Source of the DNA: Thermoanaerobaculia bacterium
GTDB lineage: Bacteria; Acidobacteriota; Thermoanaerobaculia; Gp7-AA8
DNA length: 64,000 bases
Assembly: GCA_036261885.1 (NCBI GenBank)
Contig: DATAJY010000005.1
Coordinates: 152,720-216,719, forward strand
Reading direction: 5' to 3'
Shown: in pieces, positions 41,577-51,268 of the stretch
Layout of the letters: each line of letters begins with the position of its first letter
Numbering within the stretch: the stretch's first letter is position 1
Notes under the pieces: generated by a model
The model's input: only the letters and a program-made list of their open reading frames with translations
What the model was told of the DNA's origin: nothing
The model's database searches: none
Position numbers and translations under genes: made by a program

Positions 41577-41978
41577 ATGAATCCACAACTCGAACTTCCG
41601 TTCCGTGCCCTGCGCATCGGCCTCGGCGCGGGCGCCTTTCTCGCCGGCCTCGACAAATTCTTCAACCTTCTGACGCAGTGGGAGTCGTACCTCAGTCCGC
41701 TGGTCACGAACCTGATTCCACTCACGCCCGCCACGTTCATGCGCATCGTCGGCGTGATCGAAATGATCGCCGGCCTCGTCGTGCTGGCCGGTCTCACGCG
41801 CCTCGGCGGCTACGTCATCGCCGCCTGGCTCGTCCTCATCGCTCTCAGCCTCGTGACCACCGGCAGGTTCTTCGACGTTGCCGTCCGCGACGTCGAGATG
41901 GCCATCGCCGCCTTCACTCTGGCCCGCCTCAGCGAGGCGCGCGAACGCGTTCCGCAGAGAGTCGCGGCTCCGGCGTAA
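41577..41978 (+). CDS. DoxX-family membrane protein (133 aa)
   Basis: AAAGGAG RBS. Four hydrophobic helices ('RIGLGAGAFLAGLDKFFN', 'MRIVGVIEMIAGLVVLAG') typical of DoxX. Confidence 0.65.
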   Translation: MNPQLELPFRALRIGLGAGAFLAGLDKFFNLLTQWESYLSPLVTNLIPLTPATFMRIVGVIEMIAGLVVLAGLTRLGGYVIAAWLVLIALSLVTTGRFFDVAVRDVEMAIAAFTLARLSEARERVPQRVAAPA

Positions 41979-42026: not shown

Positions 42027-43574
42027 ATGACAGAGCCGAACAGCACTCGCGATCTGCAGGAAGGCGTGCCCGTGAATGAGCTCGCCGATGGCGGCATGCT
42101 CGCCGGCCGCGTTGGTGAGGACGACGTTCTCCTTGCACGGCGCGGCGACGAGTTCTTCGCGCTCGATGCATTCTGCACGCACTATCACGGGCCACTCGCG
42201 GAGGGAGCGCTGGTCGGCGAGGCGGTTCATTGCCCATGGCATCACGCCTGTTTCGATCTTCGCTCCGGAAGTGCGATTGGTGCGCCGGCGATGCGTCCCC
42301 TGCGCACCTGGCGCACCGAGAGAACGGATGGTGTGGTGCGCGTGCTTCCGAACCCGGTGGTCGTGCATGCGCCCGCGGCGGCATCCGATCCGACGCATGT
42401 CGTGATCGTCGGCGCGGGCGCCGCAGGATCGTTTGCCGCATCGGAGTTGCGCCGGATCGGTTTCGGCGGGCGAGTGACGCTTCTCACGCGTGAGGATCGT
42501 CTGCCGTACGACAAGCCGAATCTTTCGAAGGACTATCTCGCCGGGCGTGCGCCGCAGGAGTGGATTCCTCTCCGGTCGGAGGGGGAGTACGCGGAAGATC
42601 GCGTCGAACTGCGGCTGCGCGCGAATGTCGAACGGATCGATCGTGCTCGGCACGTCGTCGCGTTGTCGGGCGGCGAGACGATCCGATACGACCGGCTCAT
42701 TCTCGCCACCGGTGCGCAGCCACGACGGCTCGAACTCCCGACGGCGCCGGAGGCGCGCGTCTCTTATCTGCGGACGTGGGGTGATGCGGATGCGGTGCTC
42801 GCGATCGCCGGATCGGTTCGACGCGTCGTCGTCATCGGCACGAGCTTCATCGGTCTCGAGGTTGCGGCCTCTCTGCGCGAACGTGGGCTGGAGGTGACGG
42901 TGGTCGGTCCCGCCGAACGGCCGCTCGCGGCGATGGGACAGGAGGTGGGTGACTTCGTGCGCAGCGTTCACGAATCGCGCGGCGTCCGATTCCGTCTCGG
43001 CCGCCGTCCCACCGCGGTGCGCGGCGATGGCGTCGTTCTCGACGACGGCAGCGTCGAACCTTGCGATTTCGTCGTCGCAGGGATCGGCGTCACCCCCGAC
43101 CTCGCACTGGCCGAGCGCGCAGGCCTGACGATCGATCGCGGCATCGTCGTCGATGCACACCTGCAAACCGACGATGCCGACATCTTCGCCTGCGGCGACG
43201 CCGCCCGATTTCCACTCGCGCGTACCGGCCAGTCGATTCGCGTGGAGCACTGGGCCGCCGCCGCGAAGCAGGGACAACTCGCCGCGCGCAACGCCGCCGG
43301 CCGTCGCGACCGCTTCACGACGGTGCCGTTCTTCTGGAGTCAGCATTACGACCTCGTGCTCTCCTACGTCGGCTACACGGAGCACGTCGACGACGTCGAA
43401 ATTTTCGGCTCACTCGCCAAGCACGACGCCGCGATCCTCTACCGCGATGCAAACCGCATCGCCGCCGTCGCCACACTCTTCCGCGACGACATCAGCCTCG
43501 CCGTCGAAACGGCAATGGAGCAAAACGCCGCCGACACCACGATTCTCGACATCGTGCGTCGCGGTTTTCGGTAA
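42027..43574 (+). CDS. Rieske [2Fe-2S] domain fused to FAD/NAD(P)H-dependent ferredoxin-reductase-type oxidoreductase (515 aa)
   Basis: Rieske ligands 'CTHYHGPL' and 'CPWHHACF'. FAD Rossmann 'VVIVGAGAAGSFAAS' and NAD 'VVVIGTSFIGLEVAAS'. Confidence 0.75.
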   Translation: MTEPNSTRDLQEGVPVNELADGGMLAGRVGEDDVLLARRGDEFFALDAFCTHYHGPLAEGALVGEAVHCPWHHACFDLRSGSAIGAPAMRPLRTWRTERTDGVVRVLPNPVVVHAPAAASDPTHVVIVGAGAAGSFAASELRRIGFGGRVTLLTREDRLPYDKPNLSKDYLAGRAPQEWIPLRSEGEYAEDRVELRLRANVERIDRARHVVALSGGETIRYDRLILATGAQPRRLELPTAPEARVSYLRTWGDADAVLAIAGSVRRVVVIGTSFIGLEVAASLRERGLEVTVVGPAERPLAAMGQEVGDFVRSVHESRGVRFRLGRRPTAVRGDGVVLDDGSVEPCDFVVAGIGVTPDLALAERAGLTIDRGIVVDAHLQTDDADIFACGDAARFPLARTGQSIRVEHWAAAAKQGQLAARNAAGRRDRFTTVPFFWSQHYDLVLSYVGYTEHVDDVEIFGSLAKHDAAILYRDANRIAAVATLFRDDISLAVETAMEQNAADTTILDIVRRGFR

Positions 43575-43783: not shown

Positions 43784-45373
43784 ATGAGACCTCGGTTGAG
43801 GACGATCGTCCTGGCGATCCTCGTCACGGCCATTTCCGTTCCGTTGTTCGCGCAGCAGCAGGGTGTGCGCATGAACTGGCAGACGTTCATCCAGGATCCG
43901 GCGCGCGTGCAGAGTCTGCGCAACGCCGTTGCGGTGATGAAATCGCGCAACAGCGCCGATCCGAAGAGCGCCGTGTATCGGACCAGCTGGGAGTACTGGG
44001 GGGCCATGCACGGCTACTTCGGTCCCGGCTCGGTCTTCGGCACCGTCGAGCAGGCCATCGCGCAGTACAACTCCAGCGGCGGCGATCCGCTGCTCCTTCC
44101 GCTGTACAACGGCATCAAGGACACGGCGCCGCCCGACGCGATCGCGCAGCAGGTATGGGGCCAGTGCCAGCACGGCACGCCTTGGTTCTTCGCGTGGCAT
44201 CGCCTCTACCTCTACTACTTCGAACAGGTGCTGCAGAAGGCGGCCAACGATCCGAATCTCCGCCTGCCGTACTGGGACTACACCGATCCGGCCAATCTGG
44301 CGATGCCGGCGCCGTACAGCACGCCGACGTATTTCGACGGCCAGGGCCACATCGAGGCCAATGCGCTCAACGAGCCGCGGCGCACGCCCGGCTGGAACCC
44401 GCCCGGCGGCAACCTGCTCGACGCGACGTCGACGAACATCAATGACGCGCTGAAGGACAAGACCTTCTTCGACACTCCGACCGGCACCGGCTACCAGAGC
44501 GACATCGAAGGGAATGTACACGGATATGTGCACTGCACCGTGGTGCCGTGTCCCGGGCCGGACATGGGCGCGGTCGGCTACTCCGCGAACGATCCGATCT
44601 TCTGGGCGCATCACGCGAACATCGATCGCATGTGGGACTGCTGGACGAGTCTCGGCAACAAGAACCCGACCGATGCGTCGTATCTGAACAAGACCTTCTC
44701 GTTCGTCGACGCCGACGGCAACCTGGTCACGAATGCGGTGGCCGATCTGTTCAACGGCAAGATCAAGTTCACCTACGTCTACCAGCAGGCCAGCAACTGC
44801 GCGCGTCCGGTCACGACGCTCGAAGCGGTGCCGGCGCCGTCGGCGAATCTCTCGCCGAGCGCGCTGGAAGCGGCGCGCACGAAACTCGCCGAGCCGGCCG
44901 TGCTCGCGGCGGTGAAGAATCACGTGATCAACGCGGAAGTGACGCGCAGGAAGCTGACGCTCGCGGGCGGGCAGCTGGAATCGGTCCGCTCGGTGGCGGT
45001 GCGCGGCAACGACGCCCTGCCGGTCGAGACCGAGCTCGTGCTGCGCAACATCCAGTTCGACTCGCATCCCGGCTCGCAGTTCAACGTCATTCTCGAACGG
45101 CGCGACGATGCGACGAAACGCGTTCGCGTCGGCACGCTGAGCTTCTTCGTTTCGACGAACCCGCACGAAGGGCACAGCGGCGCGATCAACCGCACGTTCG
45201 ACGTCACGGATGAGCTGCGCCAGATCGGCGCGTCGTCCGCCGATCTCAAGGACCTCAACGTCGTCTTCGAGGCGACGACCGGACGCGCGGGCGCGACCGA
45301 GTCGTCCTTCGACGCGAACGACGCGAAGGTCACGATCGGCGAGATCGAGCTGCGCGTGAAGGCAACGGAGTAA
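43784..45373 (+). CDS. secreted tyrosinase / type-3 copper polyphenol oxidase with C-terminal lid-like domain (529 aa)
   Basis: AAGGGAGG RBS and signal peptide 'MRPRLRTIVLAILVTAISVPLFAQQ'. CuA 'HGTPWFFAWHRLYLYYFEQV'. CuB 'HGYVH' with 'FWAHHANIDRMW'. Confidence 0.8.
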   Translation: MRPRLRTIVLAILVTAISVPLFAQQQGVRMNWQTFIQDPARVQSLRNAVAVMKSRNSADPKSAVYRTSWEYWGAMHGYFGPGSVFGTVEQAIAQYNSSGGDPLLLPLYNGIKDTAPPDAIAQQVWGQCQHGTPWFFAWHRLYLYYFEQVLQKAANDPNLRLPYWDYTDPANLAMPAPYSTPTYFDGQGHIEANALNEPRRTPGWNPPGGNLLDATSTNINDALKDKTFFDTPTGTGYQSDIEGNVHGYVHCTVVPCPGPDMGAVGYSANDPIFWAHHANIDRMWDCWTSLGNKNPTDASYLNKTFSFVDADGNLVTNAVADLFNGKIKFTYVYQQASNCARPVTTLEAVPAPSANLSPSALEAARTKLAEPAVLAAVKNHVINAEVTRRKLTLAGGQLESVRSVAVRGNDALPVETELVLRNIQFDSHPGSQFNVILERRDDATKRVRVGTLSFFVSTNPHEGHSGAINRTFDVTDELRQIGASSADLKDLNVVFEATTGRAGATESSFDANDAKVTIGEIELRVKATE

Positions 45374-45380
45374 CGGCTGA

Positions 45381-45436
45381 GTGTGGCGCGCCCCTTGGGC
45401 GCGCCACACTTGCGGAACGCGCCACACTTGCGGAAG
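45381..45436 (+). terminator. 13-bp perfect GC hairpin followed by an 18-bp tandem direct repeat after the tyrosinase stop
   Basis: GTGTGGCGCGCCC-ctt-GGGCGCGCCACAC, then 'gcgccacacttgcggaa' twice. Confidence 0.45.
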
Positions 45437-45468
45437 AACGGGTGCAAGCCTTCCGTTGCATCGTTCGG

Positions 45469-45969
45469 ATGAACAAGCGCACCACGGTTCTCTCGATCGT
45501 CGCGGCCATCACCTGGTGTGCGTTCTCCGCCAGCGCCTGCGAGCCGCCGACCATTTCCGCCAGCGCGAAAGCGATCGTCATCGAGTCGGACGTCACACGC
45601 GCGCACCTGCCGATCGCGAAGAGCGCGCTCGACGCGAACACGGAGCTCGTCCTGCGCGACATTCATTTCGAGAACCATCCGGGAACGCAGTTTCACGTTC
45701 TTCTCGCGCGGCGCGATCAGCCCGCCCGACGCGTGCGCGTCGGAACGCTCAGCTTCTACCTGCAGTCGAATACGAAACAGACGACGACGCGCACGTTCGA
45801 TGTCACCGATGAGCTGCGCCAACTCGCACGCACGCCGGCCGATCTCGAACAGATCGACGTCGTCTTCGAGGCGACCTCCGGACGCGGCGGCGCGAACGCG
45901 CGCGCGCACTTCGACGCCGATGCGAAGCTGACGATCGGCGAGGTGCTGCTGCGGGTGAAGGCGAAGTAG
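45469..45969 (+). CDS. free-standing paralog of the tyrosinase C-terminal domain, secreted (166 aa)
   Basis: Signal peptide 'MNKRTTVLSIVAAITWCAFSASA'. 'ELVLRDIHFENHPGTQFHVLLARRDQPARRVRVGTLSFY...RTFDVTDELRQLARTPADLEQIDVVFEATSGRGGA...AKLTIGEVLLRVKAK' is ~60-65% identical to tyrosinase residues ~400-529. Confidence 0.6.
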   Translation: MNKRTTVLSIVAAITWCAFSASACEPPTISASAKAIVIESDVTRAHLPIAKSALDANTELVLRDIHFENHPGTQFHVLLARRDQPARRVRVGTLSFYLQSNTKQTTTRTFDVTDELRQLARTPADLEQIDVVFEATSGRGGANARAHFDADAKLTIGEVLLRVKAK

Positions 45970-46027
45970 GCAGGGGACGACACGCACGACGCGGCGAATC
46001 GCGCAGCGATCCGCCGCGTCGGAAGCC

Positions 46028-47350
46028 TCACTGCTTTTCGAGACGCTCCATTCGTGCGCGCAGATCGGTGATCGTCTTCTGCTGCTCCTGCACGATCTTC
46101 GTCAGCACGGCCACCACGTCCATCGGCGCGAGTCCGGTGCGATCGGGAGTCGCCACGAGCTCCGGCACATCCTCGGCGATGAAGCCGACGTGCGTGTCGC
46201 TCGGATTCGCCTTGTACGCGAACGTGACCGGCTGCAGCGACTGCAGCGCATCGAACGCGGCGCCGGATTCGAGCTGGTGAATGTCCTGTTTGACCTTGCG
46301 GCTCGATGCATCGACCCACACACCGGCGTCGAGCCGGGCGCCGCTGCTGTGATGGATCTGGTACGACGGTGCGGCAACGCCGAGGCCGATGCGGCCGGTG
46401 CTGTCGATGACGAGCGAGTAGTAGGGAGCCGAGGGAAGGATGATGAACGGGTTCTGCTCGTGATTCACGTCGCGCACGTAGAAGTTGTTGTTGTTGGCGA
46501 CGATGTCCCACGTCTGGAACGGCGAGGCGCTCTGCTCCATGCGGATGGTCGGGGAGAGCGGCACGCTGATGGTCAGGTCTTTCGCGGGAGTGGAGGTGCG
46601 CAGCCCGATGCGGCCGGTGCTGTCGACGTAGAGCGCGTTGTTCGGTGTGCCTCCTTCGATCAGGAACGGCACCGTCGCGGCGGTGAGATCTTCGACGAAC
46701 AACTTGTTCGCGCCGCCGCTGAACGTGTCGTTCGCGCTGAGCTGCCAGTCGGTGGTCGCGAAGCCGGCGCTCGCCGACGTGTCCTCGAACTTGAGACGGG
46801 TGTTGTTCTCCTTCATCTTGATCGACGCGAAGCCGTAGGACTCGGCGTTCGTGCAATCGGAGCCGGCGCAGACGCCGCCCGCGGCGGCGACATCATCGGC
46901 GAAGAACGTATCGGTCGATGCTTTGAGTGAAGGGCGTGCGGTCTCACGAGCCGTCATCGGAACAACGGCGCCGTTCAGCACGGTGAACGATCCGGTCTGC
47001 ACGAGCAACGCATCGGCGGTGACGTCTTCCGAGACGCGTGAGATTTCGCGCGTCGCGCGCGCCGCGGTACGCAACTCGTACGAGTAGAGACCGTCGCTGA
47101 GATTCTCCACGCGCAGCAGCGGAGTGCGGCCGGGAGCGAACGTCTCGGTGGTCACCTGTCCATCGGGACGCTGCAGGGAGAGCACCGTGGCCGCGTGGTC
47201 GCCGGTGGGCTGCCACTCGACGGTCGTGGCCGTCGTGACGAGATGACCGACCGGCTCGTGCATCGCTGGAGCGGCGAGAACGGAGAGGGGCAGGAGTGAC
47301 GCGATGAACAGGGTGAAAAGCGAGATCGAGAACCGGGAGCGAATGCGCAT
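46028..47350 (-). CDS. secreted tail-fibre-like protein with C-terminal peptidase S74 / intramolecular chaperone autoprocessing domain (440 aa)
   Basis: Signal peptide 'MRIRSRFSISLFTLFIASLLPLSVLAAPA'. Repeated 'YVDSTGRIGLRTSTP' and 'VIDSTGRIGLGVAAP'. C-terminus 'DASSRKVKQDIHQLESGAAFDALQSLQPVTFAYKANPSDTHVGFIAEDV...TDLRARMERLEKQ' resembles the endosialidase/tail-spike chaperone domain with its Ser-Lys dyad. Confidence 0.65.
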   Translation of the reverse strand: MRIRSRFSISLFTLFIASLLPLSVLAAPAMHEPVGHLVTTATTVEWQPTGDHAATVLSLQRPDGQVTTETFAPGRTPLLRVENLSDGLYSYELRTAARATREISRVSEDVTADALLVQTGSFTVLNGAVVPMTARETARPSLKASTDTFFADDVAAAGGVCAGSDCTNAESYGFASIKMKENNTRLKFEDTSASAGFATTDWQLSANDTFSGGANKLFVEDLTAATVPFLIEGGTPNNALYVDSTGRIGLRTSTPAKDLTISVPLSPTIRMEQSASPFQTWDIVANNNNFYVRDVNHEQNPFIILPSAPYYSLVIDSTGRIGLGVAAPSYQIHHSSGARLDAGVWVDASSRKVKQDIHQLESGAAFDALQSLQPVTFAYKANPSDTHVGFIAEDVPELVATPDRTGLAPMDVVAVLTKIVQEQQKTITDLRARMERLEKQ

Positions 47351-47479: not shown

Positions 47480-50400
47480 TCACTCGGAGGCGTCGGCGGT
47501 TGCGCGTTGCCGCGTGCCGCCCGTGCTGCGGTTCGCGCGCTCGGCCATCTTGCGGAGATAGAGCTCGCAGCCGATGGAGTGGAAGATCGTGCGCGCGCGC
47601 TCGCGGCAGTCGGCGCGCTCGCGCGGATCGACTGCGTGGCGCGTCAGCTCATACAACGCGATTCCTTCTTCCATCAGCAGCCCGAGCCGTGCCGCGGTGG
47701 CGGCGGCTTTGCGCAGCAGACTCGTGCCGCGGCGTTCGCTGCCGTCGAGGCATTGCGCGACGCCGGCCAGCCGCAGCGTGCTCGGCGCGAGGATCGGCGC
47801 GCGCGCCGCGTAATGGCGAAGCTTTCGCAGCAGCGCGCTCACCGTGCGGCGCATCCGCGCGGCCTCCAGCGGATCGCGATAGCGCGCGCGCACCCACACT
47901 TCGAGATACACCTCCGCGGGACTCGAGAAGCCGCGCAGCATTTCGAAAAATGTGGGACGGTTCTTCGATGCGCTGGCGTACGCCGTGTCTGCCGCTTCGA
48001 CCGCGGCGTCGAGTTGATTGAGATGCAGCAGCGTCAGCGCGCGCAACGCGTCCATCACCACCATCGAGAGCGCGTCGTTGATCCCGACGAGACGGCGCGA
48101 GGCGTCGAGGAGATCGAGCGCCGTTTCGAGATCGCCCATGAAGATGAGCGCCCGCGCGCGGTCGATGTGTCCCCACGCCTCGTGCTGCTGATTGTTGCGC
48201 TTGCGCGCGAACTCGGCGAGGCGGGCGAACCGGTCGGCGGATGCAGAGAGTTTTCCGGTGTAGAACTCCCAATGACCGAGATGCGTTTCGAGTAATTCGA
48301 GCGCCTGCGGATCGCCGCAACGATGTGAAAGCAGCGTCGCCTCCTCCGCGGCGGCAGGCGCTTCTTTCCAGTCGCAGCGCGCGGTGTGGAAGTGGAGGCG
48401 GGCCTGCGCGACATTGGCCAGCACGAAGAGATCGTTCTCCGTTGCGGCGGTGTCGCGGGCGATCGTCAGGTAGCGGTTCGAGAGCCGGTGCAGCCCCATC
48501 ATTCCGCAGGCAAAGCCGAGAATGAAGTAGCCGAAGGCGTTGGCCGGCGTGCCGGTCAGACGCTCGCCGATGTTCACGCCGATCAGTGCGCTCGCCACCA
48601 TCGCCGTTTCGTTGGTGAGGTAATACGACAGCTCCGCGACGACCACCGCCGAATCGGAGAGCTCTTTCAGCACCAGCGTCTTCGTGCTGCGCGCGCGATA
48701 GAACGCGCGCGGCAGGAGGAGATGCATGGCCTGTCTCGTGATCTCGAGCAGCATGAGCGCCTGCCAGGCCCGAGTGCCGCGCGGTAGTTTCACGCCGAGC
48801 AATTCGAGGCTGGTGTTCAGGTGTTCGGCGGTGCTGTCGAGATCGCCGAGGCCGATTCCGGCCCGGCCGAGCAGACGATGCCAGCGCGCGTGGCGGATGC
48901 GCCGTGCGAGCACCGGCTCCGCATCGGCGTTCCGTTTGTCGAGCGAGATGGCGCGCCGCAGAAGATCTCTCGCGTCGCGGCATGCACCTCTCGTGATGGC
49001 GAGCTCTCCGGCCGTCGAGTAGTAGTGAATCGCTTTGCCGTGCTGGCCGGCCACATCCCAGTGATGCGCGAGCGCGGCCGCATTCGCGCGAAGCGAATCG
49101 TCGTCCGTGCAGGCGCTCTCGATCGCCTGCGCGGCGCGCGCGTGCAACGTGGCCAGCCGTTCCGGCGCGATGCGGTCGTAGGCCGCTTCGCGAAGCTTGT
49201 CGTGGGCGAAGCGAATCCCGCGATCGGCCGGATCCATCACGTACAGCTCGAGCAGCTCGGCGATGGCGCTCTGCGCATCGCAGGCGTTTTCCCCGCAGGT
49301 GGCGATCAGCAGCGCTTCGTCGACCTCGCGGCCGAGCACCGCCGCCGCTTCGACGACGCGGCCCGCGCTCGCGGAGATGGAGCCGAGTCGCCGGGCGACG
49401 AGATTGCGCAGGGTGCGCGGCAGTCCGAGATCGCTGAAGGAATGCGACCGCGCGCTCTGCACGTGCCAGTGACCCCCTTCGCGGTAGAGCAGTCGCTCGG
49501 CGACGGCGGCGCGCAGATATTCGGCGACGAAGAACGGATTGCCTTCGCACTGATTCGCGACGAAGCGAAGAAAACTCTCCGGTGCACCGGGCGCCGCGAG
49601 CATCGAGCGGACGATGTCGTGCACGCAGGTCTCGGCCAGTCGTTTGAGAGGCATCTTCACGACGTGCGGCCGCGCCAGCAGCGCGCGCAGATCGGGACCT
49701 GCTTCGTCGGCGCGATACGTGCCGAGCAGCATCAGCGGCGTGTTTGCGAAGAAGTCGGCGTCGAGCGTGGAGAGGAAACGCAGCGTCACCTCGTCGGCCC
49801 ACTGCAGGTCGTCGATGACCAGCACGTGCGGTCGTTCGCGCGCGAACGCATGCAGCGTTTCGGCGACGTCGGAGAAGAGCCGGCGGCAGGCGATCTCGGG
49901 AGGGATGCGCGGCGTTTCTTCGCTGCGCAATTCGACGAGCGCTTCGAAGGCGGGGTCGTGATCGCGAAGGACTGCCAGGCGCGGACCGAGAATCGACTCG
50001 ACGGCGCGAGGCGCATCGCCGCGGCAATGATCGGCGATGGCGCGGAACAGCGGCCGCAGGGGATGCAGTGCCTGTCCGCCGATCACATCGCCGCTCGTCG
50101 CGAGAGCCATGCATTCTCCGGCGATGACGCCGAAGCCGGCGAGTGTGGCCTCGCGTCCGAACACCGAGGCGACGGAGGTCTTTCCGATCCCGCTCTCTCC
50201 GCCGATGACGACGAACGCACCGCTGCGTTTGCGTCGATCGGGGAGACATGCGCGAAGCGCTTCGACGGTCTCCCGTCTGCCGACGATTTCAGGCCGATAC
50301 AGATACGTGGCCGGCTCGCTGCCGAAGTCGGCGTCGTACTGCGCGCCTGCATCGACGAGCAGCGCCGCGACGTCGTCGGCGTATCCGAGCCGGTCGGCGC

Positions 50401-51268
50401 GCCGCTTCTCGAGCAGATGCATGATGAGGTTGTCGAGCGCCGGCGGCACGTTTCGCACGACCTCGGACGGGCGCTGCGCGTTGCGCGTCAGATGCTGGAA
50501 CAGCACGTCGCCCGCGGAGGTGCCGTCGAACGGCGGCACGCCGGTGACGATCTCGTAGAGCATCACACCGAAGGAATAGAGATCGGAGCGCGCGTCGACG
50601 AGCTCGCCGCTGGCCTGTTCGGGCGATGCGTACAACGCGGTGCCGAGCATCTGTCCGGCGATCTCGAGCACCTCGCGGCCGCTGTGATCGTGATGGCGGC
50701 CGACCAGACCGAAGTCGACGAGCACCGGTCGATCGCCCGCGCGCACGAGCACGTTCTCCGGCTTGATGTCGCGATGAATGATGCCGTGCGCGTGAATGTG
50801 CGCGAGCACGCGCGCGAGCCGGTACATGAGCGTCAGCACACGCGGCAGATCGCTGCGCACTTCCGTGCGCGCATGCACGGAGGACGGCAGCACGCCCGAC
50901 ACCGGAATGAACGGATGCACCTGCTCGGTGACCGCGCGGTCGTACTCGGCGAGGCCGAGCAGCTCGCCGAGGGAGTGCGCCTCGAGCAGTTCCATGACGT
51001 ACCACGGCACACCCTTTTCGGTGCCCTCGTCGAGAATCCGCACGACGCCGGGATGCTGCAGCCGGCGCAGCGTCTGAATCTCGCGGCGGATGAATCCGAA
51101 CAGATCGGCCATCTCCGCCGACGCGATCTTGAGCGCCACCGCCGCGCCGTCGTAAAGACGCAGCGCGCGATACACGACTCCCATTCCGCCGCGCCCGATC
51201 TCGTACTCGATCTCGTACGGACCGATTGCACGCGGCGGGACCGGATCGCTGTGCGCAGCGACGCTCAT
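47480..51268 (-). CDS. STAND-type multidomain Ser/Thr protein kinase: Hanks kinase, then AAA+/P-loop NTPase, then TPR-like C-terminal region (1262 aa)
   Basis: 'GRGGMGVVYRA', 'AVALK' and 'HRDIKPENVLV' for the kinase. P-loop 'VVIGGESGIGKTSVAS'. Long helical repeat C-terminus. Confidence 0.75.
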   Translation of the reverse strand: MSVAAHSDPVPPRAIGPYEIEYEIGRGGMGVVYRALRLYDGAAVALKIASAEMADLFGFIRREIQTLRRLQHPGVVRILDEGTEKGVPWYVMELLEAHSLGELLGLAEYDRAVTEQVHPFIPVSGVLPSSVHARTEVRSDLPRVLTLMYRLARVLAHIHAHGIIHRDIKPENVLVRAGDRPVLVDFGLVGRHHDHSGREVLEIAGQMLGTALYASPEQASGELVDARSDLYSFGVMLYEIVTGVPPFDGTSAGDVLFQHLTRNAQRPSEVVRNVPPALDNLIMHLLEKRRADRLGYADDVAALLVDAGAQYDADFGSEPATYLYRPEIVGRRETVEALRACLPDRRKRSGAFVVIGGESGIGKTSVASVFGREATLAGFGVIAGECMALATSGDVIGGQALHPLRPLFRAIADHCRGDAPRAVESILGPRLAVLRDHDPAFEALVELRSEETPRIPPEIACRRLFSDVAETLHAFARERPHVLVIDDLQWADEVTLRFLSTLDADFFANTPLMLLGTYRADEAGPDLRALLARPHVVKMPLKRLAETCVHDIVRSMLAAPGAPESFLRFVANQCEGNPFFVAEYLRAAVAERLLYREGGHWHVQSARSHSFSDLGLPRTLRNLVARRLGSISASAGRVVEAAAVLGREVDEALLIATCGENACDAQSAIAELLELYVMDPADRGIRFAHDKLREAAYDRIAPERLATLHARAAQAIESACTDDDSLRANAAALAHHWDVAGQHGKAIHYYSTAGELAITRGACRDARDLLRRAISLDKRNADAEPVLARRIRHARWHRLLGRAGIGLGDLDSTAEHLNTSLELLGVKLPRGTRAWQALMLLEITRQAMHLLLPRAFYRARSTKTLVLKELSDSAVVVAELSYYLTNETAMVASALIGVNIGERLTGTPANAFGYFILGFACGMMGLHRLSNRYLTIARDTAATENDLFVLANVAQARLHFHTARCDWKEAPAAAEEATLLSHRCGDPQALELLETHLGHWEFYTGKLSASADRFARLAEFARKRNNQQHEAWGHIDRARALIFMGDLETALDLLDASRRLVGINDALSMVVMDALRALTLLHLNQLDAAVEAADTAYASASKNRPTFFEMLRGFSSPAEVYLEVWVRARYRDPLEAARMRRTVSALLRKLRHYAARAPILAPSTLRLAGVAQCLDGSERRGTSLLRKAAATAARLGLLMEEGIALYELTRHAVDPRERADCRERARTIFHSIGCELYLRKMAERANRSTGGTRQRATADASE

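What the first reader, a model, noticed from the sequence alone, without database searches (positions are those of the whole stretch)
43784..45969. Secreted tyrosinase followed by a free-standing, recently duplicated copy of its own C-terminal 'lid' domain
The tyrosinase has both type-3 copper sites, CuA 'HGTPWFFAWHRLYLYYF' and CuB 'HGYVH...FWAHHANIDRMW', plus a ~130-aa C-terminal extension. The next gene encodes a secreted protein ~60-65% identical to just that extension, e.g. 'VRVGTLSFF...RTFDVTDELRQ...VVFEAT.GR.GA' in both. In plant and fungal polyphenol oxidases the C-terminal domain shields the active site until proteolytic activation. A trans-encoded copy could act as an inhibitor, caddie-like copper or maturation chaperone, or decoy. 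This arrangement differs from the Streptomyces MelC1/MelC2 caddie system.
Basis: seen in the sequence. Interest (0 to 1): 0.65.

Follow-up and report, generated by a model that had tools for sequence, protein, structure and literature searches.

The report
Tyrosinase plus free-standing lid paralog
A secreted copper enzyme (tyrosinase) that carries a built-in cap over its active site is followed by a separate, conserved gene for a stripped-down copy of that cap; bacteria have evolved this pairing several times, and it could help show how such enzymes are switched on or off.

Summary
Window 43784-45373 encodes a Sec-exported, lid-bearing pro-tyrosinase from a Thermoanaerobaculia (Acidobacteriota) MAG. 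Window 45469-45969 encodes a secreted 166-aa protein that is 50% identical (E=2e-43) to the enzyme's C-terminal lid and is predicted to adopt the same beta-sandwich fold.

The duplication is not recent. At least 29 intact free-standing orthologues form their own clade. They sit downstream of tyrosinases that are roughly 77% or more identical to this one, and they are under purifying but relaxed selection (dN/dS 0.21-0.66, against 0.04-0.31 for the cis lid).

The free copy keeps the strand-loop motif RVGTLSF-Y but differs from attached lids in three ways:
- It has lost a 14-aa helix.
- It has lost the His-rich loop, which has two or more His in 96 of 100 attached lids and none in the free clade.
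- It has an invariant Tyr where 100 of 100 attached lids have Phe.

The same pairing occurs in at least two other tyrosinase lineages, and each free copy is most similar to its own neighbour's lid. This indicates repeated independent origin.

Best reading, by inference only: a trans-acting, caddie-like cap without a copper-handling role. Whether it inhibits or activates the enzyme is untested. The library searches found no paper describing this arrangement. I rate it a new variant of a known kind.

The parts
43784..45373 (+). Pro-tyrosinase gene (529 aa): signal peptide, type-3 copper catalytic domain, linker and C-terminal lid
   Evidence: ORF. Pfam PF00264 E=1.1e-32 plus PPO1_DWL. AF2 pLDDT 89.3. 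Foldseek best matches are latent lid-bearing PPOs 8b74, 6els, 4z11 and 7xio. 628 homologues at E<=1e-10.
43784..43852 (+). Signal peptide of the tyrosinase (MRPRLRTIVLAILVTAISVPLFA|QQQ), Sec-type, no twin-arginine motif
   Evidence: Read from the sequence. Low-confidence N-terminal helix in the AF2 model. No predictor was run.
43862..44803 (+). Catalytic domain (about residues 27-340). Invariant H76, H130, H139, H246, H250, H276 are read as the CuA and CuB ligands by motif position. C128 lies two residues before H130.
   Evidence: These residues are invariant in the 60-sequence alignment A2. phmmer alignments to hemocyanin and PPO copper sites. dN/dS 0.035-0.135.
44897..45370 (+). Cis lid: C-terminal beta-sandwich domain (residues 372-529)
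   Evidence: DSSP of the AF2 model. Weak PPO1_KFDV match, E=0.032. The phmmer alignment to apple pro-PPO 6els runs through residue 488.
44972..45013 (+). Helix insertion (residues 397-410, QLESVRSVAVRGND), present in attached lids and deleted in the free paralogue
   Evidence: BLASTP gap. Alignments. Helix H396-407 in the model.
45131..45148 (+). GTLSFF motif (residues 450-455) at the end of a beta-strand. Inferred site of the active-site placeholder.
   Evidence: F455 invariant, and G450, S453, F454 nearly invariant, in A2. The second aromatic is Phe in 100/100 attached lids. By analogy with abPPO4, where Phe454 sits in the loop right after a strand (PMC4157443). The plug role was not tested.
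45149..45190 (+). His-rich loop (residues 456-469, VSTNPHEGHSGAIN) following the motif. Inferred copper-handling loop of the cis lid.
   Evidence: Two or more His in 96/100 attached lids and none in 29/29 free-clade proteins. By analogy with the CXXC loop that follows the placeholder in abPPO4. Function is inferred.
45380..45410 (+). Intercistronic GC-rich hairpin (about 14-bp stem) 7 nt after the tyrosinase stop codon, with no U-tract
   Evidence: RNA fold -54.4 kcal/mol, z=-3.55. The stem is conserved in 4 of 5 orthologous loci with a variable loop. It is not a dispersed repeat in the window. The simple scan does not call it a terminator.
45400..45435 (+). Tandem 18-nt duplication CGCGCCACACTTGCGGAA x2, overlapping the 3' arm of the hairpin; specific to this window
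   Evidence: Read from the sequence. Absent from L018, L003 and L001 in alignment A3.
45469..45969 (+). Free-standing lid paralogue gene (166 aa): signal peptide (residues 1-23, nt 45469-45537) plus a beta-sandwich domain
45742..45759 (+). GTLSFY motif (residues 92-97) of the free paralogue; Tyr97 replaces the Phe of attached lids
   Evidence: G92, L94, F96 and Y97 are invariant in 29 free orthologues. Tyr in 30/30 free-clade proteins against 0/100 attached lids.
45987..46021 (.). Hairpin between the free-lid gene and the convergent downstream gene; a possible bidirectional terminator
   Evidence: RNA fold -32.8 kcal/mol, z=-3.1.

Best explanation
**What the two genes are.**
- The first encodes a Sec-exported latent tyrosinase. 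Its own C-terminal beta-sandwich lid covers the dicopper site.
- The lid's GTLSFF strand end is inferred to supply the active-site placeholder. The adjacent His-rich loop is inferred to help load copper after export.
- The second gene arose by an old duplication of the lid. It encodes a secreted, simplified lid that keeps the fold and the docking strand (RVGTLSF-Y), has lost the helix and the His-rich loop, and has Tyr97 where attached lids always have Phe.

**Proposed mechanism.** I propose that the free protein acts in trans on the adjacent tyrosinase in the periplasm or outside the cell. It would dock on the surface that the cis lid occupies, most plausibly re-capping the processed, active core as a caddie-like plug that carries no copper. 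This would limit quinone production near the producing cell.

**Shown.** Homology, predicted fold, conservation, purifying selection, conserved gene adjacency, repeated independent origin, and the three lid-versus-free differences.

**Inferred.** Docking, the identity of the plug residue, the copper role of the His loop, and the direction of the effect (inhibition rather than activation).
For: **Same fold as PPO lids.**
- 50% identity to its own cis lid.

**Functional gene.**
- 29 intact orthologues, each with a signal peptide and 19 invariant residues.
- dN/dS 0.21-0.66, with the 95% CI below 1 in 9 of 10 pairs.

**Tied to the tyrosinase.**
- The free gene sits immediately downstream in the window and in L003, L006, L018/L019 and L026. 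Five further short contigs appear, from matching contig lengths, to carry both proteins.
- Both proteins have export signals.
- The most conserved blocks of the free protein coincide with the conserved blocks of the lid, including RVGTLSF.

**Repeated origin.**
- In L014 and L015 a free lid-like protein lies beside a lid-bearing tyrosinase. In L022 the neighbouring tyrosinase is cut by the contig end, so its lid is not seen.
- Each free copy is most similar to the lid of its own neighbour (for L022, the lid of the neighbour's relative P0281): 139, 163, 89 and 90 bits, against 98 bits or less to lids of other tyrosinase lineages.

**Consistent differences between free and attached forms.**
- Two or more His in the loop in 96/100 attached lids, against 0/29 in the free clade and 9% of other free-standing forms.
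- The second aromatic is Phe in 100/100 attached lids. It is Tyr in 30/30 free-clade proteins and in 13/28 other free-standing proteins.

**Precedents from papers.**
- A lid domain expressed alone folds autonomously and acts on the pro-enzyme in trans (PMC6563526).
- Caddie proteins plug the site with a Tyr, and C-terminal lids plug it with Phe or Leu (PMC10526336; PMC4157443).
Against: - No complex could be modelled, and no model coordinates were available. Docking and the plug residue therefore rest on analogy alone.
- The free protein evolves much faster than its supposed partner. Across nine paired loci, mean pairwise identity is 59% for the free protein, 76% for the cis lid and 83% for the catalytic domain. 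In the closest pair its dN is about 10-fold that of the tyrosinase. That is unusual for a tight, specific interface.
- Related tyrosinases at 65-76% identity have no free copy, so it is dispensable.
- In one MAG (L001/L005) the catalytic domain is deleted while the free gene remains intact.
- The only experimental precedent for a lid added in trans shows faster activation, not inhibition.
Confidence: 0.4

Rival explanations
1. Trans-activator. The free lid competes with or destabilises the cis lid, or promotes cleavage of the linker, and so speeds conversion of the latent enzyme to the active form.
For: Adding the separately expressed C-terminal domain of apple MdPPO1 to the pro-enzyme increases the self-cleavage rate in a concentration-dependent way (PMC6563526). 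This rival is supported by the same fold, adjacency and co-export evidence as the main explanation.
Against: There is no evidence that this enzyme self-cleaves. Relatives without a free copy presumably still mature. Nothing in the sequence points to activation rather than inhibition.
Confidence: 0.15
2. Neofunctionalised secreted beta-sandwich. After duplication the lid copy took on a role that does not involve docking on the tyrosinase. Examples would be binding a polymer, a phenolic substrate or the cell surface, or serving as a Tyr-bearing protein substrate.
Against: The best structural matches are lids, not CBMs. The gene stays strictly next to a tyrosinase wherever enough flank is available, and this holds in three independent lineages. 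The conserved blocks are the same as those of the lid.
Confidence: 0.22
3. Copper metallochaperone in the strict MelC1 sense. The free protein would deliver Cu to the apo-tyrosinase after Sec export.
For: The gene is adjacent and the protein is co-exported. Caddie proteins are small beta-rich partners encoded in the same operon (PMC9454253).
Against: The free clade has no His in the loop where attached lids have two or more. Its only widely conserved His is H70, in the HPG motif shared with all lids. No conserved Cys or Met motif is present, and the Cys after the signal peptide is not conserved. There is no MelC1 family hit.
Confidence: 0.05
4. A functionless duplication remnant that is slowly decaying.
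For: It has the highest evolutionary rate of the three modules. It is absent from sister lineages. The L006 copy has a divergent C-terminal end.
Against: 36 hits include no internal stops, and 29 full-length orthologues keep a signal peptide. dN/dS is significantly below 1 in 9 of 10 comparisons. 19 residues are invariant. The architecture has arisen independently in other lineages.
Confidence: 0.05

Closest known systems
Latent bacterial and plant pro-tyrosinases/PPOs with a C-terminal lid (Hahella HcTyr1 8B74, Ralstonia TYR 7XIO, V. spinosum vsTyr, apple MdPPO1 6ELS/6ELT, aurone synthase 4Z11)
   Same: The window's tyrosinase has the same two-domain plan: a helical dicopper core, a linker and a beta-sandwich lid. 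These proteins are its best Foldseek matches. The free protein has the lid fold.
   Different: In the accounts read here, these enzymes carry the lid only in cis. Here a second, simplified lid is encoded as a separate secreted protein next to the enzyme. The review consulted lists three bacterial architectures (caddie, C-terminal extension, neither) and none that combines a cis lid with a trans protein (PMC9454253).
Streptomyces MelC1 / ORF378 caddie protein with MelC2 tyrosinase
   Same: A small, beta-rich, exported partner encoded beside the tyrosinase. The caddie plugs the active site with a Tyr, which becomes dopaquinone on activation. The free lid has an invariant Tyr at the inferred plug position.
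   Different: There is no sequence-family match. The fold is a PPO lid, not a caddie. The gene lies downstream rather than upstream. The signal is Sec-type, not Tat. No copper-binding His set is present. The partner tyrosinase already has its own lid and its own signal peptide.
Separately expressed C-terminal domain of MdPPO1 (Csole, PDB 6ELV), a laboratory construct
   Same: It is a lid domain produced on its own. It folds autonomously and acts on the pro-enzyme in trans (PMC6563526). The window encodes a natural equivalent.
   Different: Csole is identical in sequence to the cis lid. The natural free paralogue is only 50% identical and lacks a helix and the His-rich loop.
Pfam DUF7868 (PF25271)
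   Same: Profile-profile match of the free clade to free-standing DUF7868 proteins: 99.4% probability, E=1.9e-21. DUF7868 is also recorded on the C-termini of some tyrosinases and on a free protein next to one.
   Different: Neither window protein reaches the Pfam threshold for DUF7868. The family has no assigned function, and no paper in the library mentions it.

Membership tests
Type-3 copper tyrosinase / polyphenol oxidase (PF00264) | Sequence-family match above the curated threshold | tested here: met
   PF00264 E=1.1e-32, 114.6 bits against a cut-off of 22.6.
Type-3 copper tyrosinase / polyphenol oxidase (PF00264) | Six histidine ligands forming the CuA and CuB sites | tested here: met
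   H76, H130, H139, H246, H250 and H276/H277 are invariant in 60 homologues and align with the hemocyanin and PPO copper motifs. Copper binding itself was not tested.
Latent pro-tyrosinase with C-terminal lid (PPO1_KFDV / DUF7868-type) | C-terminal beta-sandwich domain packed on the catalytic domain | tested here: met
   AF2 model pLDDT 89.3, pTM 0.87, with eight strands in residues 372-527. The best Foldseek matches are latent, lid-bearing enzymes aligned over about 540-570 columns.
Latent pro-tyrosinase with C-terminal lid (PPO1_KFDV / DUF7868-type) | Pfam match of the lid to PPO1_KFDV or DUF7868 above threshold | tested here: not met
   PPO1_KFDV E=0.032, 14.7 bits against a cut-off of 26. 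No DUF7868 hit. The relationship is visible only by profile-profile comparison and by fold.
Latent pro-tyrosinase with C-terminal lid (PPO1_KFDV / DUF7868-type) | A lid residue (placeholder or gatekeeper) inserted in the active site | not testable with these tools
   Model coordinates are not returned. F454/F455, just after strand 446-452, is proposed by analogy with abPPO4 Phe454. Its distance from the C-terminus is also similar to that of published placeholders.
Free-standing DUF7868 proteins | Homology to the DUF7868 domain in a protein of about 150-200 aa with a signal peptide and no catalytic domain | tested here: met
   hhalign of A4 against A5: 99.4%, E=1.9e-21 over 135 columns. 15 of the 17 A5 members hit PF25271. 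The window protein itself does not pass the Pfam HMM.
MelC1-type caddie metallochaperone | Membership of the MelC1 sequence family or fold | tested here: not met
   No MelC1 hit in Pfam at E<=10 or in NCBIfam. The fold is a PPO lid.
MelC1-type caddie metallochaperone | Tat signal on the caddie, with the tyrosinase hitch-hiking without its own signal | tested here: not met
   Neither N-terminus has a twin-arginine motif, and the tyrosinase has its own signal peptide (sequence). In L015 and L022 the tyrosinases carry their own Tat-like signals.
MelC1-type caddie metallochaperone | Conserved copper-binding histidines | tested here: not met
   No His in the plug-adjacent loop in 29/29 free-clade proteins. 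The only near-invariant His is H70, in the HPG motif common to all lids.
MelC1-type caddie metallochaperone | A tyrosine that occupies the active site as a pseudo-substrate | tested here: inconclusive
   Tyr97 is invariant at the position where attached lids always have Phe. Whether it reaches the copper site could not be tested.
Pseudogenised duplication remnant | Frameshifts or stops in homologues, and neutral evolution | tested here: not met
   Orthologues are intact. dN/dS 0.21-0.66, with the CI below 1 in 9 of 10 pairs.

The most novel reading that the evidence does not exclude
Free-standing lids may be a convergently evolved, caddie-like class of sacrificial plugs. After the cis lid is removed, the free protein would insert its invariant Tyr97 into the active site and be oxidised there to DOPA or quinone by the enzyme. 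That would give either a self-timed release (a delay switch) or a DOPA-bearing secreted protein. On this reading, cis lids must use Phe to avoid self-oxidation and keep the His loop for copper loading, while trans lids can use Tyr and drop the loop.
Probability: 0.15. Interest if true: 0.8.

Novelty: new variant of a known kind. Interest (0 to 1): 0.6.

Why it matters
How latent tyrosinases and polyphenol oxidases are activated and controlled in vivo is still described as largely unknown (PMC6563526).

Bacterial tyrosinases are currently sorted into three types: caddie-dependent, lid-bearing, or bare (PMC9454253). This locus combines a cis lid with a trans lid-like protein, and the combination has arisen repeatedly.

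The consistent differences between attached and free lids separate two roles that are usually confounded in lids and caddies:
- The His-rich loop is present in attached lids and absent from free ones, which points to copper loading as a role of the cis lid alone.
- Phe in attached lids against Tyr in free ones points to a difference in how the active site is plugged.

These give concrete, testable predictions for each role. The enzymes occur in Thermoanaerobaculia (Acidobacteriota) MAGs, and tyrosinases of soil and wetland bacteria have been proposed to influence phenolic turnover (PMC9454253).

Tried and rejected
1. **Direct family assignment of the free protein.** Pfam, NCBIfam and a PDB sequence-profile search gave nothing significant. 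The relationship needed a fold search and hhalign.
2. **Origin by whole-gene duplication followed by deletion of the catalytic domain.** I tested this through signal-peptide similarity. The scores (20-28) are no higher than those against unrelated signal peptides (20-33), so there is no evidence for it.
3. **The intercistronic hairpin as a dispersed REP-like element.** Only the two arms match in the 64-kb window. It is also not called by the simple terminator scan.
4. **Locating the placeholder by residue-level alignment to solved lids.** The alignment to 6els is reported only as coordinates, and hemocyanins fill the slots for printed alignments. Lid-only queries find nothing. P0175, which has the same length as HcTyr2, carries no name.
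5. **Search against afdb50.** The library is not installed.
6. **Genome and metagenome scans.** They returned only 9 and 10 loci. That is enough to show which tyrosinase subclade has the free copy, but not for statistics.
7. **Placing distant free-standing families on the NJ tree.** The result is unstable (bootstrap 53%). I used reciprocal similarity to neighbouring lids instead.
8. **Context of the other free-standing families.** P0169, P0202, P0214 and P0239 lie on contigs too short to show any neighbour.
Full report
**Observation**

The window comes from a Thermoanaerobaculia (Acidobacteriota) MAG. Both proteins are found with 100% identity in NCBI records of that name.

The ORF at 43784-45373 (+) encodes a 529-aa protein with a Sec-type signal peptide. 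It matches Pfam Tyrosinase (E=1.1e-32) and, at threshold, PPO1_DWL. H76, H130, H139, H246, H250, H276 and C128 are invariant across 60 homologues. I read these as the copper ligands and the thioether-type Cys by motif position.

The next ORF, read from the conserved ATG at 45469 to 45969, encodes a 166-aa protein with its own signal peptide. BLASTP aligns it only to residues 371-527 of the tyrosinase (79/158 identical, E=2e-43).
- The score is far above shuffled controls: 135 bits against a maximum of 22.
- There is no other tyrosinase or lid in the window.

**What the two proteins are**

The full-length AF2 model is confident (pLDDT 89.3). It shows a helical core, a lower-confidence linker (about residues 341-371) and an eight-stranded C-terminal sandwich.
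- Its best PDB matches are latent, lid-bearing enzymes aligned over their whole length: Hahella HcTyr1 8b74, apple pro-PPO 6els, latent aurone synthase 4z11-4z14 and Ralstonia TYR 7xio.
- phmmer carries the alignment to 6els through residue 488, well into the lid.

The free protein also models as a beta-sandwich (pLDDT 83.8).
- Neither window protein passes the Pfam models for PPO1_KFDV (E=0.032) or DUF7868.
- The free clade nevertheless matches free-standing DUF7868 proteins by hhalign at 99.4%, E=1.9e-21.

**Not a recent duplication**

The database search found 36 relatives of the free protein. Most are free-standing proteins of 150-190 aa with a signal peptide, at 53-75% identity.

The free gene lies directly downstream of the tyrosinase in the window and in L003, L006, L018/L019 and L026. 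Five further short contigs appear, from matching contig lengths, to carry both proteins. Tyrosinases at 65-76% identity (L004, L007-L013, L025, L029-L031) have a lid but no free copy.

In an NJ tree of the domain:
- the 29 free copies are monophyletic (bootstrap 72.5%);
- the attached lids of the same tyrosinase subclade are monophyletic (83.5%);
- the free copies and the attached lids of this and the related Thermoanaerobaculia tyrosinase subclade together form a group (78.5%).

The window's free copy is therefore not sister to its own lid.

Rates point the same way.
- Against the closest relative (L018), the tyrosinase is 96% identical (dN/dS 0.05) while the free protein is 75% identical (dN 0.158, dN/dS 0.44).
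- Over nine paired loci, mean pairwise identity is 83% for the catalytic domain, 76% for the cis lid and 59% for the free protein.
- The free gene is nonetheless constrained. dN/dS is 0.21-0.66, with bootstrap 95% CI below 1 in 9 of 10 pairs, and 19 residues are invariant.

**How the free copy differs from every attached lid**

Alignments across close, intermediate and distant tyrosinases show three differences.
- **Helix.** Attached lids have an insertion of about 14 residues that forms helix 396-407 in the model. The free clade lacks it.
- **His-rich loop.** Attached lids have a loop directly after the GTLSFF motif (HEGH here). It carries two or more His in 96/100 attached lids. It carries none in 29/29 free-clade proteins and none in 66% of other free-standing relatives. 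The free loops are also shorter (median 12 against 19 residues).
- **Second aromatic of the motif.** It is Phe in 100/100 attached lids. It is Tyr in 30/30 free-clade sequences and in 13/28 other free-standing proteins.

**A recurrent architecture**

A profile search of 1.84 billion representative proteins found 182 proteins with the domain. Many are secreted proteins of about 170-200 aa from other families.

Where flanking DNA was available:
- L014 has a lid-bearing tyrosinase followed by a free copy with a Tat-like signal.
- L015 has a free DUF7868 protein directly upstream of a lid-bearing tyrosinase that has its own Tat signal.
- L022 has a free DUF7868 protein directly upstream of a Tat-signal tyrosinase. 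That gene is cut by the contig end, so its lid is not seen.

Each free protein is most similar to the lid of its own neighbour. For L022 the comparison is with the lid of the neighbour's relative P0281. The scores are 139, 163, 89 and 90 bits. This compares with 98 bits or less to lids of other tyrosinase lineages and 34-68 bits to free proteins of other families. The simplest reading is at least three independent lid duplications, although ongoing gene conversion with the neighbour would give the same pattern. Either way, the pairing is selected and specific to the cognate enzyme.

**Mechanism (inference)**

Three published findings frame the inference.
- In abPPO4 the placeholder Phe454 sits in the loop right after a lid beta-strand. 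It is followed by a long loop bearing a CXXC motif implicated in copper incorporation (PMC4157443).
- Published placeholders are Phe, Leu or Ile in lids and Tyr in Streptomyces caddies, where the Tyr becomes dopaquinone (PMC10526336).
- In vsTyr, mutating the lid Phe leaves the copper sites underloaded.

Here the strand 446-452 is followed by S-F-F and then the His-rich loop, which is the same local arrangement. I therefore infer three things:
- F454/F455 is the plug of the cis lid.
- The His loop helps copper loading of this Sec-exported enzyme.
- The free paralogue keeps the docking strand and a Tyr plug but has no copper role.

My preferred model is a trans-acting cap for the processed core. 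The opposite direction is a live rival, because the only experiment with a lid supplied in trans (MdPPO1 Csole) showed faster self-cleavage (PMC6563526).

Points that count against any tight partnership:
- the free protein's fast evolution;
- its absence from sister lineages;
- one MAG (L001/L005) in which the catalytic domain is deleted but the free gene is intact.

**Gene organisation**

A GC-rich hairpin (45380-45410, z=-3.55) lies 7 nt after the tyrosinase stop. It is conserved in 4 of 5 orthologous loci with a variable loop and has no U-tract. It could be a partial terminator or a stability element that sets the ratio of the two products, but this is untested. A second hairpin follows the free gene. 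The flanking genes are not conserved beyond close relatives, so the unit is the two-gene pair.

**Novelty**

The review consulted recognises three bacterial tyrosinase architectures: caddie, C-terminal extension, or neither (PMC9454253). Searches for DUF7868 and for trans or stand-alone lids found no description of a natural free-standing lid paralogue. The library is limited to open-access papers, so an earlier description cannot be excluded. I rate this a new variant of a known kind.

Noticed in passing
L001 5627-6543 (same place as L005; MAG MFD01916.bin.2.105, 5.03-Mb contig): The tyrosinase is reduced to the last 82 residues of its lid (80% identical to the window's), and the catalytic domain is gone. 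The free-lid gene next to it is intact and still shows dN/dS of about 0.5.
   Followed up: partly
L021 23-722: Two tandem free-standing lid-like genes of a different subfamily (INFYNQ type) on a 1-kb contig. No tyrosinase is visible within the contig.
   Followed up: no
L014 2383-5026 (- strand): A second, divergent 536-aa tyrosinase lies beside the tyrosinase-plus-free-lid pair, flanked by unannotated 131-aa and 190-aa genes. The lid profile does not detect a lid in it.
   Followed up: no
window 45400-45435: A perfect tandem duplication of 18 nt (CGCGCCACACTTGCGGAA x2) overlaps the 3' arm of the intercistronic hairpin. It is absent from the orthologous loci.
   Followed up: partly
window 46028-47350 (-): A secreted 440-aa protein with a C-terminal Peptidase_S74 domain (endosialidase intramolecular chaperone, E=7.5e-10), convergent with the free-lid gene. 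The same neighbour is present in L018.
   Followed up: no
window 47480-51268 (-): A 1262-aa ORF whose N-terminus reads like a Ser/Thr protein kinase, followed by a long region that looks like an ATPase/TPR-type regulator. This is by eye only; it was not scanned.
   Followed up: no
window 42027-43574 (+): A Rieske [2Fe-2S] plus FAD-dependent pyridine-nucleotide-disulphide oxidoreductase fusion sits between a DoxX-like gene (41577-41978) and the tyrosinase. In the close relative L019, DoxX is followed directly by the tyrosinase, so this gene is an insertion here or a deletion there.
   Followed up: partly
L004 5223-6828: The tyrosinase of this long-read contig is split into two frames around residue 230. 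This is probably an assembly frameshift, and it explains the 275-aa 'tyrosinase' hit P0032.
   Followed up: partly
L014 and L015 N-termini: In other lineages the free lid-like proteins (P0165, P0262) carry Tat-like signals. So do their partner tyrosinases or close relatives of them. Both window proteins look Sec-type.
   Followed up: partly
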